Origin: an uncultured Candidatus Peribacteria bacterium
Lineage (GTDB): Bacteria > Patescibacteriota > Gracilibacteria > BD1-5 > UBA6164
DNA length: 27,083 nt
Assembly: GCA_964449635.1 (NCBI GenBank)
Contig: CAYUZH010000004.1
Location: 1 to 27,083 of the forward strand
Direction: 5' to 3'
Notes under the pieces: model-generated
What the model was told of the DNA's origin: nothing
What the model saw: the letters and a program-made list of their open reading frames with translations, nothing else
The model's database searches: none
Program-made: the position numbers and the translations under genes
Shown here: one piece after another, positions 1,732-24,924 of the stretch
How positions within the stretch are numbered: position 1 is the stretch's first letter
Layout: the number at the start of each line of letters is the position of its first letter

Positions 1732-1863
1732 AATAATACTTTATATAAAAATATAAATTCAGTATATAACTATTTTTAATTTAATGTCAATTATAAATTC
1801 CTGATAAAATCTTTGTCTTATGATACAATAAAAGGGAATAAAATATTTTTAATATATTTTCCC

Positions 1864-3219
1864 GTGTGACTCAAAGATTTCCTTGATAAAAGTATGAAAT
1901 CTCCCGCTCCCGACAATTCATCATCTTCTCCTGAAAAAGTAGAGGATTTATTTAGCGTTAAATCAGCTGAAAGTTCAGCAGAATACGAAAACTCAGATCT
2001 CCATTTATTTAACTATGGGACCGCATGAGATGACAGTACAACGATTAGTCTTGTCAATGATATATTTCTCGCTGCTTTTACAGAACAGGCTTCGGATATC
2101 CATATAGAACCACGAGAAAAACTTGTAAAGATTCGTTTTCGTGTCGATGGAAACTTTGTAAACTACAAAGATCTCCCTTTAAGTCAAAGGGATTCTCTCA
2201 TTGCTCGTATCAAAATTATGGCATATTTGAGAATAGACGAACACAGACTTCCACAAGATGGAAAAATAAACTATAAACTCTTTGCTGGAAAAACGGTCGA
2301 TATGCGTATCTCTGTTATCCCCACTATTTACGGAGAAAAATGTGTTATCCGTATACTAAAGAAAGACGAGAAACCACCTGAACTCAAAGAACTCTGAGTG
2401 CTTCCATACAATATGGTAAAAATTAAAAACCATCTCCAAGATAATTTTGGGATGATTCTTGCGGTTTGACCAACTGGAAGTGGAAAATCAACGACTCTTT
2501 TTACTCTTCTCTCTCAATTTAATCCAGAGGAAAACAATATCTCTACTCTTGAAGACCCGGTTGAATATCGAATCCCTGGAGTTAACCACACCCAGATTAA
2601 TCCAAGTATTGATTTTTCTTTTGCTACGGGACTTCGCTCACTTCTTCGTCAAGATCCAGATATCATTATGGTAGGAGAAATTCGTGATGAAGAGACGGCA
2701 AAACTTGCGGTAGAAGCGAGTATCACTGGTCATATCGTCTTTTCTACTCTTCATACCAATAGTGCGGTTCATACTATACAACGTCTGACAAATCTCGGAG
2801 TTGACCCACTTCTTATCACTTCTTCTATTCGACTCATTATATCCCAAAGACTCGCAAGAAAACTTTGTCCTCACTGTAAAGAAAGTTATACCGCTGATGA
2901 GAAAATTTCTGAAAATATCTTTAAGCAAGTAGGAAAATACATAAAAAATAAAAATTCTCTTCCCCTTTTTAGAGCTCATGGAGGAGGATGTGAAAAATGT
3001 AACGGAACTTGATATAAAGGAAGAATTTGATTTTTTGAAGTTCTCGAAATCACTGAAAAACTCGAAAATCTCATTCTTACAAATGCTAGCAAAACACAGA
3101 TGGAAATACAAGCACTCGGAGACGGAATGGTACCGATGAAAGAAGATGCTCTCCTAAAAGTAGTTATGTGAGATACAAGCCTTGAAGAGATGCTTTCTGT
3201 CCTTTGAGTCAGTAGTTAG
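1864..3219 (+). CDS. PilB/GspE-family secretion or pilus assembly ATPase (paralog 1), about 451 aa; start is GTG 1864 or ATG 1894
   Basis: ASDIHIEP, IRFRVDG, DEHRLPQDG, AV(G)[48 protein letters not shown]...GCEKC; ends at TAG 3217-3219. Confidence 0.95.
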
Positions 3220-20006: not shown

Positions 20007-20082
20007 GGGATAGTAGCTCAGCCGGTAGAGCAGGGCCCTTTTAAGGCCAAGGTCGTGGGTTCGAATCCCGCCTGTCCCACCA
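20007..20082 (+). tRNA. tRNA-Lys(TTT), CCA encoded
   Basis: Cloverleaf: GGGATAG/CTGTCCC acceptor, GCTC/GAGC D-stem, loop CT-TTT-AA, GTGGG-TTCGAAT-CCCGC T-arm, A73-CCA; 76 nt. Confidence 0.96.
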
Positions 20083-20097
20083 TGTAAAATTTAAAAA

Positions 20098-20130
20098 ACT
20101 CTCTTTGTTGCGAAAGAGAGTCTTTTTTTT
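20098..20130 (+). terminator. terminator after tRNA-Lys
   Basis: ACTCTCTTT-6 nt-AAAGAGAGT followed by C and a T-run. Confidence 0.8.
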
Positions 20131-20234
20131 GGAGAATTTAAAAATATCGAGCCTACTTTCAAAAAAGTTTTTATTTGACTTTTAATATTTTTTAATTTAA
20201 ATATATTAAAATATTTCATTAGTTATTTAATTAA

Positions 20235-22892
20235 ATGTCACCTCAAAAACCTTTTGAATGACCATCTGATGACGTTCTTTATCATTTCACAGATAACGAA
20301 CTTGAAGATGCTGCCAAGAAACTCTGAATCGCAGAGGCTGCTGCTACTATTATCTCTCAATGAATAGTAATCGAAAAAATAAAACAAGACCTTGATTCAA
20401 GAACAAGACAAAACTGACTTCCAAAAGAACTTCATGATTTCATCAATTCTCGAAGAGCCAAACATTTATTTCGTATGAAATGAGTTTCTTTTCAAACATG
20501 AAAAGATGATAGATTGGGAGAGAATATTGACAATCTCTGTGCAAATCTTAATCCTGAATCTTCTTATGAAGGAGGCCCTATAAAATACCTTGAGACTATT
20601 CATAATAAATATTTTAATGATAATTCCCCTCTTGGTGATTTCATCATGCGTACTCCCGAGGATTATCTCAAAGTACTCATTTACCAACTCAATCTTACTC
20701 GTATTGAGCAACTTGAAAGATTTTTTCAAGCATTTGAAAAATATAAAGAAAAATTAGAGATATCTTCCGAATGATTTTATAAACGGTGAAGTTGAGAGTT
20801 TTATCATTTACAATACTCTTTTAAAAACCACGTAGAGTTTTTGGCTACTACCATATCTCCCGAACGACTCTACCATATCCTTAATATCTTCAATATTAAA
20901 AATATAGATGATTTCATCACCCTTTTTATAAAAACTCCTTGAATATATCCTCTTCTGGTGGGAGTAGATTTAAATCTTTTAACTTATTTCACTGAAGCTA
21001 ATAAAATAAATACTCTTGAAAAATGCATCAAATTTTTCTGATATGATTGAGATTGAGAACCAGATTCTCTTAAGAGTTTGAAAAATAGAGATCTCAATAA
21101 AAAAGAAGAAACCGACATAAAAAAAATTCTTGCACGTATCAGTGAACTTGGAGAAAAAGCGATTGAAAATACTTTATTTTTATTAAGGTATTTTTGAATT
21201 CACGATATAACATCTCTCTCGGTCATTGATACAAATATGGCAAATATACTTTCTGCATCTTCAGAAGCAAATATATGATATCTCCTCTGACTCTATGGAG
21301 CAAAAAATCTTGAAGAAGTGAAATCTTGTTTACTCCATCCATATATATCTTCCAACATAGAAAGGGTTGATTATAAAAACCTTTTTCAAATACTACAGAT
21401 GATAGGAATCTCAAAAAAAGATCAGTCTCCAATAGCAAAAAAGATAGTAGAAAATTGGTATGATACCGATACTTCCGACACTCTCAAAGAGTTAAAAATC
21501 ACGCTCGAGAAATTCAAGTGAAACATAGGAAATATAGGCCTCTATATTCTCTTTGTATTGAAAGAGAAAAAAGATATTCGAGGAAATATACAAGAACTCA
21601 TCAAAACATTGGAATCTCTTGAAAATGTACTTTCTCATCCAGGAACAAGCGCATATATAGATTTTTCTCGACTTATACAATTGTCTGATTTTATGGGGTG
21701 ATATATCACCTGTTATCTAGCAAAAAAAGTTTTAGAAACTTCCGAGATAGAACAACTTTTGCAATCATGGGAAGAGACGATACAAGAGTATAAACGTGGA
21801 AGTTTTGATAGAGAAAATGAACTTCATATCAATCTAGAATACAAATACTTTAAACAAATTTCTCAAGACGATACTATCGCACAACATATGTGGAGTAAAT
21901 TTACTTTCACTGATTACACCTATATTTTTAGAAGAAATGTCTGAAATAATACAAGTTTTAGAGACAAAGATGCTTATGAACTTGAATGTGTTTCATATGA
22001 AGCAGAACTCTTGAAACAGTATATCTTCCAAGTAAATGAAAAAGCAAAACGTCTTTGAAAAAAACTTATAGTAGTACCAAACCTTACCTATGGGTATCTT
22101 CCACTTTCAGCTATCATACAAGAACTCGAAGGAGAAAGCAATATAGAAATTTGTATCTGACCAAAAGTCGGTTCTACAGAAAGTCATAGCAATATGGAAG
22201 TACTAAATAGAAGTTTATTTCGTTGAAAAAGAACCGATATAATAAACAACCAACCTATGATACTCGTCATAGATGGTACTCAACACCTCGTATCAAGAGA
22301 TGGGGACGGTAAATCTGCACGATATCCTGACGCATATCAATGATATCTCAATCAAGTCATAGCTATAAACTACGCACTTTGATATACTGATCCAAAAAAA
22401 CTTCAAAATGCATATATTTGAAAAACAGAAGAAGATCTCGTCAGACTTTTTGCTACAGAAGAATTCAAAAGAACAAGTGAAATTTATCGTAACCTTATAG
22501 AACAATCACCTCGCAACATGTATAATTTCTGACTCCGGAATACTGCATGATACCCTCTTATAATTCGATGATATAGAAGAGAAATACCAACTACTATACA
22601 ACCTTTGGAAGCATCTGATGTAAATGGTCCTACTCTTATCTTTTGTAATGTTGGTGTATTACACGAAGACCTCCCAGAACAGATTAAGTCCTCTCGTTAT
22701 CAACATATACCTGCATACTTTGATGATAGTGGGAAAATTATACGCTTCGAGTACTGATATTCCTCAACTGGTATCCAGTTTGCAAACAGTATTGAGACAC
22801 ATTTACAAAATTTACAAAACAAAAATAAGAAGTCTCAGCCTCCTCATCCTGCTCTTTTGAGACACAAAATATCTATTACTCATGAAAGTTAA
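20235..22892 (+). CDS. large hypothetical protein, 885 aa (helical repeats plus PRTase-like C-terminal region)
   Basis: A single frame with no TAA/TAG for 2.66 kb that includes ORF-track fragments 20514, 21318 and 21759 (all the same frame). Confidence 0.88.
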
Positions 22893-23521
22893 AACTCCAT
22901 ATTGAGTCACGCATAATCAACTTCTCCCCAATTTCATGGAGAAAACTGTTTCTCTGTGATAATTGACTGAATTTTTTCATCACCTCCTATTACTTTTATC
23001 GTTCTATATTCTTGAATTTCTTGTTCATGAACAATATTACCTGATAAATAAAAAGAAGTATATCCTCATAAATTTTTTATATAAAGTATTCATTGATCAT
23101 ACTGAGTATTGAGGTTTCAAGTAAATCCAACACTCGAAGTAATAAGTCCAGATGCGGTAACTCCTCCTACAAATGTCGATCATGAAAAAGCAACAAATTT
23201 GAAAAAAAGAGGACCTCCTTTTTGAATCGTTATATGGAGAGGAAACTGAGTCGTGGTGGTGTATCGAAACTCTGTGCTTTTTCCTTGTTGCAAAGTAAAA
23301 AAATTTTGCATCAGCTTCTCAAAACGGGTTCGGTCTCCCGCTCAAGTTCATTCATTTAAAGAATCTTGTTGAAACATAGTTTCTACGACTCCCACAAGAC
23401 TTTTTTCAAATCGTATTTTTTCTGAAAGTTTTGTTGAAAATGAAGCGAAAAGAAAAACAAGAACAAGCGATATACATATCGACCATAAAAGTATACTCCC
23501 TGTATTATTGCTTTTTTGCAT
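22889..23521 (-). CDS. PilX/GspK-like minor pilin, 210 aa
   Basis: MQKSNNTG|SILLWSICISLVLVFLFASF: short leader ending in Gly, then a hydrophobic helix lacking Glu+5; open to TAA 22889 with TGA=Gly. Confidence 0.6.
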
Positions 23522-23574
23522 AGGATTGAAAAATAGGATACAATAAGAAGGAACTATTTGTAATAGTATAGCAA

Positions 23575-24924
23575 ATGAGCGAAAATACAACTCAAAAAGA
23601 TGATACTTCCTCTTCACAACAGTGAGGAGGAGTTCAAAATCAAAATATCCAAGAACTCAAAGAAACTCTTCTTTCACAAGCCGAAAAAAGAGAGTATTAT
23701 TCTGCTCGTTTTGATAAAATAGAGCAACATGTCAAAGAAAATCTCTGAAAGCAAAATACTGACGAAGTTCTTCGAGATATTACTCTTTGATCGATGGTGG
23801 TCTGAAGTTCAGATATTCACTATGAAGTGTATGAAAAAGATGTGATTGTTCGTTTCAGAATTGATGGTGTCCTTGTTGATATATTTAATCTTCAACATAA
23901 AGAATATAAAGCTATTCTTGAACGCTTAAAATATTCTGCTGGACTCAAGCTCAATATTGTTGAGGTTCCTCAAGATGGAAAATATTCTATGAAAATAGAT
24001 GAGAAAAAAGTAGATGTCAGAGTTTCTACTCTCCCCACAAAATACGGAGAAAACGTGGTTTGTAGAGTACTCGATGCTCAAAAAAATATCATAGATTTTG
24101 AAGAACTTGGTTTTTTTTGGACTTCAAAACGTATGATTGAAAAAGCAATTACTCAAAATACTTGAATGATTCTTGTCACGTGACCAACAGGGTCTTGAAA
24201 GACAACGACTTTGTATACAATGCTTGAACGTCTTAATACTCGTGATGTGAAAATCATCACTCTCGAAGACCCGATAGAGTATGAGATGCCGGGAGTTATC
24301 CAAGCAGAAGTCGATGAAAGAAAATCATTTACTTTCGCTGTTTGACTCAAAGCTCTGATGCGTCAAGATCCTGATATCATAATGGTCTGAGAAATCCGCG
24401 ATGCGGAAACTCTCAATACAGCTGTCAATGCTTCTTTGACTGGTCATCTTGTTCTTTCAACCCTCCATACAAAAAGTGCGGCTGAGACGCTTGATAGACT
24501 CAGAAATATGGGACTTCAAAATTTTCTCATGGCATCGGCTCTCAATACCATTATCGCTCAAAGACTCGTAAGAAAAATATGTTCTCATTGTAAAGTTGAA
24601 AAGCAAAAGACTCCCACAGAAGAAGCGATTGTAAAAAATATGATGGAAGAAACAGGAATGAAATGAATTCCAACCGAAAACATAAAACTTTATCACGGTA
24701 CTGGATGTGAACAATGTAATCATAGCGGATATCACGGAAGAATTTGAGTCTATGAAATTATCAATATGAACGAAAAACTTAGAGACCTCATCCGTTCATG
24801 AGCAAAAACAGAGGATATCATTCGCGAAGCAAGAAATGGTGATCTTATCACTATGAAAGAAGATGGTATCTTAAAAGCAATTCGAGGACATACGACAATA
24901 GAAGAACTTTTACGTGTTATATAA
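23575..24924 (+). CDS. PilB/GspE-family ATPase (paralog 2), 449 aa
   Basis: [20 protein letters not shown](G)PTGS(G)[23 protein letters not shown](G)[18 protein letters not shown]...GCEQC. Confidence 0.95.

What the first reader, a model, noticed from the sequence alone, without database searches (positions are those of the whole stretch)
22056..22892. PRTase-like catalytic-looking domain at the C-terminus of the same orphan, just downstream of tRNA-Lys
KKLIVVPNLTYGYLPLSAI resembles the type I PRTase PPi loop (VxxxxRGG.P), KVGSTESH the flexible loop, and ILVIDGT a shortened PRPP-binding motif (VLIVDD...TG.T); PAYFDD follows near the end. A repeat solenoid fused to a divergent PRTase, standing alone beside a tRNA (a common integration site), fits a defence, effector or nucleotide-signalling protein of an undescribed class. 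No integrase is present.
Basis: inference. Interest (0 to 1): 0.62.

Follow-up and report, generated by a model that had tools for sequence, protein, structure and literature searches.

The report
Unannotated PRTase-like enzyme module
The C-terminal third of an 885-residue Gracilibacteria protein (TGA read as glycine) is a strongly conserved, unannotated enzyme-like domain whose predicted fold is closest to PRPP-using phosphoribosyltransferases, and in many relatives it is fused to a sugar-phosphate phosphatase, which suggests a new family of ribose-phosphate-transferring enzymes in ultra-small symbiotic or predatory microbes.

Summary
With TGA read as Gly (code 25), 20235-22892(+) is one 885-aa gene just after tRNA-Lys(ttt). 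The quoted motifs are there and fall on the most conserved columns of a family.

It is not an orphan. An exhaustive search found 186 cluster representatives sharing a ~370-aa module (residues ~490-860). They come from Woesearchaeota and other archaea, Gracilibacteria, and giant HEAT-repeat proteins of Omnitrophota, Elusimicrobiota and Thermoproteota.

No sequence library or profile links the module to anything known: Pfam, NCBIfam, PADLOC, PHROGs, PDB sequences, and hhalign against PRTases.

Of 164 module-bearing proteins, 46 carry a canonical HAD phosphatase, usually 6-68 aa after the module and sometimes as tandem cassettes. This mirrors the gPRT+phosphatase logic. The window protein has no HAD.

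The gene is very patchy: same genus only among 40 relatives, at a variable spot after tRNA-Lys.

Best reading: a new PRTase-like transferase family with an unknown acceptor. The scan met a probable 1315-aa relative before, in another genome, function unknown.

The parts
20007..20082 (+). tRNA-Lys(ttt). It ends the conserved SPase-TruB-tRNA-Lys block; the cargo after it differs between relatives.
   Evidence: ARAGORN. The same block is found in G001, G006, G007, G012, G018 and G019, with different downstream genes.
20098..20121 (+). Terminator-like hairpin plus T-run directly after the tRNA. It suggests, by inference, that the target gene has its own promoter in 20122-20234.
   Evidence: Consensus scan. 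A pattern match only.
20235..22892 (+). The whole gene: 885 aa under code 25 (29 TGA=Gly), soluble, with no signal peptide or TM segment.
   Evidence: Maximum Kyte-Doolittle 19-residue window is 1.36.
20235..21701 (+). N-terminal helical module (residues 1-489). It is separable: P0113 and P0161 carry it with a different C-terminal half.
   Evidence: BLAST and phmmer ranges. hhalign Prob 99.9 and 99.7 over the N-terminal ~480 aa only. 42% identity to the G001 orthologue, against 57% for the C-module.
21702..21959 (+). Helical lead-in of the conserved module (residues 490-575). The long helix that follows it packs before beta1, as helix alpha36 (HB-1) does in Bcs3-CriT.
   Evidence: Family conservation starts at about residue 490. 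AF2 helices H9-82. The VIA alignment to 8a0c starts at chain residue 639/644, and the CriT domain limits come from PMC10299916.
21960..22829 (+). Alpha/beta catalytic-looking core (residues ~576-865): five main parallel strands with a three-helix insertion after beta3. PRTase-like / gPRT-like fold.
22071..22094 (+). beta1 plus loop VVPNLTYG (residues 613-620; N616, Y619 and G620 near-invariant), at the position of the PRTase PPi loop / CriT loop 1.
   Evidence: Loop definitions from PMC10299916. The equivalence is inferred from topology, not from a superposition.
22164..22187 (+). Loop KVGSTESH after beta2 (residues 644-651; K/R644 in 100%, S647 in 100%, H651 in 95%), at the position of the flexible loop / CriT loop 2.
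22260..22280 (+). beta3 ILVIDGT (residues 676-682), with invariant Asp680 at the strand end followed by G-T. This is the position of the PRPP-motif acid (E818 of Bcs3-CriT).
22320..22352 (+). RYPDAYQGYLN (residues 696-706): a conserved loop and helix N-terminus after beta3 (P698, D699 and N706 at 95% or more). Gly703 is encoded by TGA.
22704..22727 (+). HIPAYFDD (residues 824-831; H824 in 93%, D830 in 100%, D831 in 97%): a conserved His/Asp-Asp loop after beta5, a candidate metal or acceptor-activating site.
   Evidence: The functional role is inference.
22830..22892 (+). Short non-conserved tail and stop. The protein ends here, with no HAD domain, unlike 46 relatives. The stop overlaps the stop of the convergent ORF 22889-23677(-).
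   Evidence: No family-type HAD anywhere in the 80.6%-complete genome.

Best explanation
Residues ~490-865 of this 885-aa protein form a member of a previously unannotated, strongly conserved enzyme module. The core has a phosphoribosyltransferase-like alpha/beta fold, closest to the PRPP-dependent glycan phosphoribosyltransferases (gPRT/CriT). Proposed mechanism (inferred): PRPP-Mg binds at the C-terminal edge of the sheet. Invariant Asp680 at the end of beta3 holds the ribose hydroxyls and metal. The loops after beta1 (N616-G620) and beta2 (K644, S647, H651), and the RYPD loop, hold the phosphates. The His824/Asp830/Asp831 loop activates a nucleophile on an acceptor, which receives ribose-5-phosphate while PPi leaves. 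The acceptor is unknown. It is probably chosen by the separable N-terminal helical module here, and by HEAT arrays in the giant relatives. In about a quarter of the family a Cof-type HAD sugar-phosphate phosphatase follows the module and would remove the 5-phosphate, a two-step ribosylation as in gPRT+PRP enzymes. The window's subfamily lacks it, so its product would stay phosphorylated. The gene is an accessory, laterally spread gene sitting in a variable spot after tRNA-Lys. Shown: the gene and its code, the family, its conservation pattern, the fold neighbours, the HAD fusions and the patchiness. Inferred: PRPP as donor, residue roles and acceptor.
For: Family and conservation: 50 hits at E 1e-59 to 1e-181 and 40-55% identity across archaea and bacteria; 186 representatives; polar residues conserved in 95-100% of 154 sequences, lying at or after strand C-termini.

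Context: 46 of 164 module proteins carry a HAD with canonical DLDGT/T/K/D..D motifs. In 33 it starts 6-68 aa after the module. Two giants carry tandem module-HAD cassettes. The HAD part matches Cof-type sugar phosphatases (4qjb, 6.7e-7). gPRT+HAD-PRP is the defining architecture of PRPP-dependent Ribf transferases (PMC11127046; PMC11231755).

Weak concordant hints: Pfam Rit1_C (Rit1 is, from my own knowledge, a PRPP-dependent tRNA ribosylphosphate transferase) hits inside the module of P0104 at E 7e-4. The only named families among language-model neighbours are PF00156 and PRTase-CE.

Accessory status: found in 1 of 40 relatives and as 3 weak matches in 400 genomes of the phylum; variable cargo after tRNA-Lys. 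The G001 orthologue keeps all 23 conserved residues.
Confidence: 0.5

Rival explanations
1. The module is an enzyme with a generic Rossmann-like three-layer fold that does not use PRPP. One option is another kind of transferase or synthase that makes a phosphorylated sugar product, later dephosphorylated by the HAD, as in sucrose-P, trehalose-P or glucosyl-phosphoglycerate synthase/phosphatase pairs. Another is a metal-dependent hydrolase using the His/Asp residues.
Confidence: 0.27
2. It is a classical nucleotide-salvage or nucleotide-synthesis type I PRTase (base + PRPP gives a nucleotide) that has merely diverged beyond recognition.
For: Classical HGPRT/UPRT structures are among the nearest neighbours. 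CPR genomes depend on salvage (my own knowledge).
Against: The genome already has three PF00156 PRTases elsewhere. The module is about 370 aa with extra helical bundles and is always embedded in large repeat proteins, up to more than 7,000 aa. Its distribution is extremely patchy. The canonical PRPP motif is absent. The fused HAD would destroy a nucleotide product's 5'-phosphate.
Confidence: 0.05
3. The module is a non-catalytic ligand-binding or regulatory domain (periplasmic-binding-protein or receptor-ATD-like, or SM-protein-like) that senses a small molecule for the repeat scaffold.
Against: Several charged or polar residues are conserved in 95-100% of sequences, clustered at strand ends, over archaea-bacteria distances; this is typical of catalysis. 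The tight cassette with a catalytically intact HAD suggests consecutive reactions. Binding-protein hits rank below the PRPP enzymes.
Confidence: 0.08
4. Biological-role reading of the first reader: an anti-phage defence or toxin/effector gene brought in as an island at tRNA-Lys. This concerns role, not chemistry, and can be combined with the best explanation.
For: Present only in the same genus among 40 relatives. It sits at a spot where relatives carry a restriction-nuclease-like gene or a resolvase. The closest relatives are in archaea. The architecture is modular, with a swappable C-terminal half. Distant relatives sit in Omnitrophota giant proteins of the kind proposed to act on prey cells (10.1101/2023.11.21.568195).
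Against: No PADLOC or PHROGs match. No phage, plasmid or IMG/VR relatives. No integrase, immunity or partner gene, and no conserved neighbour in 20 loci. No secretion signal. The tRNA-adjacent position is shared by two species 49% apart, so the gene is old in the genus.
Confidence: 0.25

Closest known systems
PRPP-dependent glycan phosphoribosyltransferases (gPRT): the CriT domain of H. influenzae Bcs3 (PDB 8A0C) and the Thermobacillus composti ribofuranosyltransferase (PDB 7SHG), which work with a HAD phosphoribose phosphatase (CrpP/PRP)
   Different: No detectable sequence similarity. Domain order is module then HAD, whereas in Bcs3 CrpP comes before CriT (inferred from residue numbers in PMC10299916). 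The loop-1 Asp of CriT is Asn616 here. The helical insertion is placed after beta3. The HAD is Cof-type IIB and did not match the 7SHG or 8A0C phosphatases. There is no glycan-synthesis gene context. Hosts are DPANN, CPR and Omnitrophota, inside repeat or giant proteins. The window protein has no HAD at all.
Type I phosphoribosyltransferases (Pfam PF00156; HGPRT, UPRT, APRT)
   Different: PF00156 does not detect it and hhalign gives Prob <1%. There is a single Asp instead of the two-acid ...TGxT PRPP motif. The module is twice the size. It has extra invariant His/Asp-Asp and RYPD motifs with no PRTase counterpart.
Rit1 (tRNA A64 2'-O-ribosylphosphate transferase, Pfam PF17184/PF04179)
   Same: A PRPP-dependent O-phosphoribosyl transfer to a macromolecule (my own knowledge). 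One family member (P0104) gives a sub-threshold PF17184 hit inside the module (E 7e-4, 19.5 bits against a cut-off of 27).
   Different: PF17184 finds nothing in the window's genome even at E <= 10, and only 1 of 45 members scanned gave the hit. I could not obtain Rit1 sequences or a structure for a profile or fold comparison.
Omnitrophota giant 'Archaeovorin'-type HEAT-repeat proteins (West-Roberts et al., bioRxiv 10.1101/2023.11.21.568195)
   Same: Distant members of the module family (25-33% identity) lie inside HEAT-rich giant ORFs of Omnitrophota. Two are open-ended at more than 7,000 aa. That paper lists HEAT_2 and HAD_2 among the most frequent domains.
   Different: The window protein is small (885 aa), has no Pfam-detectable HEAT repeats and no HAD, and belongs to the Woesearchaeota/Gracilibacteria subfamily. 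I found no description of this module in the passages of that paper returned by my term search.

Membership tests
Type I PRTase (PF00156) | Recognised by the family profile | tested here: not met
   Pfam scan at E <= 10 gives no PF00156. A whole-genome PF00156 search rings at three other loci but not at C4:20235-22889. hhalign against APRT and mixed-PRTase profiles gives Prob <1%.
Type I PRTase (PF00156) | Canonical PRPP-binding motif: hydrophobic strand, two adjacent acidic residues, then ..TGxT | tested here: not met
   The sequence is ILVID-GTQH: one invariant Asp (D680) followed directly by G-T. There is no second acid and no TGxT spacing.
Type I PRTase (PF00156) | PRTase alpha/beta core as the nearest known fold | tested here: met
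Type I PRTase (PF00156) | PRPP-dependent catalysis with PPi release | not testable with these tools
   Needs a biochemical assay.
gPRT / CriT ribofuranosyltransferases | Structural match to the CriT/gPRT catalytic domain | tested here: met
gPRT / CriT ribofuranosyltransferases | Split acidic pair holding the ribose (Bcs3 D680 in loop 1, E818 in loop 3) | tested here: inconclusive
   The loop-3 position has invariant Asp680. The loop-1 position has near-invariant Asn616, not Asp. The equivalence is by topology only; no coordinates were available for superposition.
gPRT / CriT ribofuranosyltransferases | Partner HAD phosphoribose phosphatase in the same protein or locus | tested here: not met
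   For the window protein: none in the protein, the window or the 80.6%-complete genome. For the wider family it is met: 46 of 164 members, 33 of them directly adjacent, some as tandem cassettes.
gPRT / CriT ribofuranosyltransferases | Sequence homology to characterised gPRTs | tested here: not met
   phmmer and profile searches of PDB sequences (which include 8A0C and 7SHG) return nothing for the module at E <= 10.
gPRT / CriT ribofuranosyltransferases | Location in a capsule, O-antigen or glycan assembly gene cluster | tested here: not met
   The neighbours are an ABC ATPase, signal peptidase, TruB, tRNA-Lys and a PilB-like ATPase. No neighbour is conserved across 20 loci.
Rit1 (PF17184/PF04179) | Match to the Rit1 profiles | tested here: not met
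   No match in the window protein or genome at E <= 10. There is a single sub-threshold hit in relative P0104.
Known anti-phage defence proteins (PADLOC-DB) | Match to any defence-system profile | tested here: not met
   No family at E <= 1 for P0001 or P0012.

The most novel reading that the evidence does not exclude
The module, alone or as a module-HAD cassette, defines a new class of PRPP-dependent (phospho)ribosyl transferases that modify a macromolecule (protein, RNA or cell-envelope polymer) rather than a base or a capsule. In this reading, ultra-small episymbionts and predators (DPANN archaea, Gracilibacteria, Omnitrophota 'Archaeovorin'-type giants) use it on partner or prey cells, with repeat arrays (HEAT, or the N-terminal helical module here) acting as the targeting part.
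Probability: 0.2. Interest if true: 0.85.

Novelty: new variant of a known kind. Interest (0 to 1): 0.65.

Why it matters
If the reading is right, a conserved domain of about 370 aa, absent from every library searched here, would be assigned a chemistry: PRPP-dependent ribose-phosphate transfer, optionally followed by dephosphorylation. The domain is shared by DPANN archaea, CPR bacteria and the giant proteins of Omnitrophota, and it keeps 40-55% identity across the two prokaryotic domains. That would extend the recently discovered gPRT+phosphatase logic, so far confined to capsule and O-antigen synthesis, to a different protein family and to organisms whose host-interaction machinery is almost entirely uncharacterised. 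It would also give a first enzymatic handle on unannotated stretches of 'Archaeovorin'-like giant proteins. The hypothesis is directly testable with a recoded gene and a PRPP assay.

Tried and rejected
Sequence libraries, all negative for the protein or module:
- Pfam, NCBIfam, PADLOC and PHROGs.
- PDB sequences with a single sequence and with profiles.

Weak hits judged to be noise: DUF5388, and ArfB/creatininase at E 0.08.

Structure searches:
- Foldseek against the PDB was not significant for either model.
- The ESM Atlas structure rows for P0012 rest on the Atlas's own poor model (pLDDT 0.44) and give TM <= 0.31, so they are uninformative.

hhalign of a 154-sequence core profile against APRT and mixed-PRTase profiles built from relatives: Prob <1%, the same as the HAD negative control.

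Ideas considered from motifs and dropped:
- TIKI/TraB 'GTxH' enzymes: no PF01963 hit, and not among the fold neighbours.
- Caspase-like or amidotransferase: no conserved Cys.

Rit1: PF17184 finds nothing in the genome, and two literature searches gave nothing on its fold.

Mobility: no relatives in phages, plasmids or IMG/VR.

I used the search for related loci and the genome search instead, and found no conserved neighbour. The first related-loci run failed because alignment A1 was too divergent.

An apparent '38 in-frame stops' in locus L023 was my own frame artefact and is withdrawn.

Model coordinates are not exposed to scripts, so I could not test 3-D clustering of conserved residues or superpose on 8A0C. 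Both structure-prediction jobs went to the C-module, so the N-terminal module was not modelled.

Full report
**The gene and its code.** Under table 11 the region holds only short ORFs. Reading TGA as sense gives one 885-aa frame at 20235-22892(+) with 29 TGA codons.

The code is 25 (TGA=Gly), not 4. In the PilB-like ATPase at 1813-3219, glycines of the Walker A stretch and of the GTGYKGR stretch are TGA. In the target gene, TGA encodes Gly703 and Gly841, which are Gly in 88-94% of family members. The few 'W' residues in those columns probably come from database entries translated with TGA=Trp (my inference).

tRNA-Lys(ttt) lies at 20007-20082, followed by a terminator-like hairpin. The protein has no signal peptide or TM segment.

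**Not an orphan.** A word-indexed search with residues 580-885 returned 50 proteins. E-values ran from 1e-59 to 1e-181, with 40-55% identity over more than 90% of the query. Sources include Woesearchaeota, Heimdallarchaeaceae, Thermoproteota and Gracilibacteria, and almost none carries Pfam annotation.

The exhaustive HMMER search found 186 cluster representatives (E <= 1e-3) and set the conserved unit at residues ~490-860. The unit is C-terminal in proteins of 850-1350 aa. It is internal in HEAT-repeat giants of 2,000-5,660 aa from Thermoproteota, Omnitrophota and Elusimicrobiota.

In GTDB species representatives only 20 loci were found. Two of them are Omnitrophota ORFs of more than 7,000 aa that are open at both ends.

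The N-terminal ~480 aa is a separate module. P0113 and P0161 share it (hhalign Prob 99.9 and 99.7) but have a different, equally unannotated C-terminal half.

**No sequence-level identity.** The following all give nothing for the module:
- Pfam, NCBIfam, PADLOC and PHROGs
- PDB sequences, by single sequence and by profile
- PF00156 scanned over the whole genome
- hhalign against PRTase profiles built from relatives

**Fold.** The AF2 model of residues 485-885, built with a 45-sequence alignment, has pLDDT 91.3 and pTM 0.89. It consists of:
- a helical lead-in and a long helix;
- beta1 (LIVVP), then the NLTYG loop and a helix;
- beta2, then the KVGSTESH loop;
- beta3 (ILVID), then G-T, a long loop with RYPD, a helix and a three-helix insertion;
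- beta4 and beta5;
- the HxPAYFDD loop and a hairpin.

The residues conserved in 95-100% of sequences (E589, N616, G620, S647, H651, D680, D699, N706, D830, D831), together with H824 (93%) and an always-basic position 644, sit at or just after strand C-termini. This is the usual site of catalysis in such folds.

The scores alone would not convince. The fact that both known gPRT structures and a dozen PRTases head the list twice does make 'PRTase-like / gPRT-like fold' the best-supported description.

The canonical PRPP motif itself is not present.

**The HAD clue.**
- Pfam found HAD domains right after the module in P0093 and P0158, 340 aa downstream of it in P0083, and inserted within it in P0045.
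- Searching all retrieved proteins showed that 46 of 164 module proteins carry a HAD. In 33 it starts 6-68 aa after the module. In 11 it follows a constant spacer of ~330-350 aa. In 2 it is inserted.
- 103 proteins, like the window's, simply end after the module.
- P0055 and P0058 contain two tandem module-HAD cassettes.
- The HAD has the canonical DLDGT nucleophile motif plus the T, K and D..D motifs. It resembles Cof-type IIB sugar-phosphate phosphatases (PfHAD1, 6.7e-7; sucrose phosphatase).

A PRPP-using transferase domain coupled to a HAD phosphatase that removes the 5-phosphate is exactly what defines the bacterial ribofuranosyltransferases (PMC11127046; PMC11231755; PMC10299916).

Two weak, concordant hints exist. 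One is a sub-threshold Pfam Rit1_C hit inside the module of P0104. The other is that PF00156 and PRTase-CE are the only named families among language-model neighbours. Neither is evidence on its own, and PF17184 finds nothing in the window's genome.

**Distribution and locus.**
- The gene is single-copy in its 1.08-Mb, 80.6%-complete genome.
- Among 40 relatives, only the same-genus genome G001 has it, at 49% identity, also directly after tRNA-Lys(ttt) and with all 23 conserved residues kept.
- None of 39 other family or order genomes has it.
- Among 400 sampled genomes of the phylum there are only 3 weak or partial matches.
- The signal peptidase-TruB-tRNA-Lys block is conserved in the family, but the cargo after the tRNA varies: a R.HinP1I-like nuclease, a resolvase, a TPM phosphatase, a hydrolase.
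- In a tree of the module, the two Gracilibacteria sequences form their own clade. Their closest sequences (about 45% identity) are archaeal, and the Omnitrophota HEAT+HAD forms are a separate, well-supported clade.
- No neighbour gene is conserved across 20 loci.
- There are no phage, plasmid or viral-contig relatives.

**Interpretation.** The C-terminal domain is real and conserved, and it almost certainly has a catalytic role. The best reading (about 0.5) is a new family of PRTase-like, probably PRPP-dependent, phosphoribosyl transferases whose acceptor is unknown. The wider family often completes the reaction with a fused sugar-phosphate phosphatase, while the window's subfamily would leave a phosphoribosylated product.

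Membership in PF00156 or in the characterised gPRT family is not met at the sequence level, so this is 'works like', not 'is a'. The main rival (about 0.27) is a different chemistry on a similar Rossmann-like scaffold.

It is probably a family member, and its function was left unknown. I did not verify this.

Noticed in passing
window 1-27083 (e.g. 1813-3219, 20235-22892): The whole window is read with code 25 (TGA=Gly). In family alignments a few database sequences show W at otherwise invariant Gly columns. These look like entries from recoded genomes translated with TGA=Trp.
   Followed up: partly
L009 5992-6918(-), L012 5362-6063(+), L013 6056-6967(-), L010 3352-4272(+): In relatives lacking the gene, the slot after the conserved SPase-TruB-tRNA-Lys block holds different cargo: a R.HinP1I-like restriction nuclease (G007), a resolvase (G018), a TPM phosphatase (G006) and a hydrolase (G012). 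tRNA-Lys marks a variable spot in this family.
   Followed up: partly
P0083 1800-2136; also P0084, P0085, P0086, P0089, P0091, P0092, P0106: In 11 giant or large relatives, a constant spacer of ~330-350 aa with no Pfam match separates the module from the HAD. It may be a further conserved unknown domain of the cassette.
   Followed up: no
P0113 residues ~485-965; P0161 residues ~495-970: Two proteins share the window protein's N-terminal helical module but have a different C-terminal half of ~480 aa, with no Pfam, PADLOC or PHROGs match. This suggests a scaffold with exchangeable heads.
   Followed up: partly
P0055 2047-3616; P0058 2324-3887: Giant proteins of about 4,400 aa contain two tandem module-HAD cassettes, plus a third HAD upstream.
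   Followed up: partly
P0045 1182-1302; P0067 955-1093: A different, NIF/CTD-type HAD phosphatase is inserted inside the module in two members. This is an independent second way of joining a phosphatase to the module.
   Followed up: partly
window 22889-23677 (-): A convergent 262-aa ORF with no Pfam match. Its stop codon overlaps the stop codon of the target gene by 3 nt. It has no match in the G001 locus, so synteny ends right after the target gene even within the genus.
   Followed up: partly
L029 2-21107; L033 2-21089: Omnitrophota ORFs of more than 7,000 aa, open at both ends of the 21-kb loci, contain the module in their middle.
   Followed up: no
L023 3-473 and 424-1326: In a MAG contig labelled Deltaproteobacteria the module is split over two overlapping frames (a frameshift or assembly error). 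A 2,372-aa ORF follows it.
   Followed up: no
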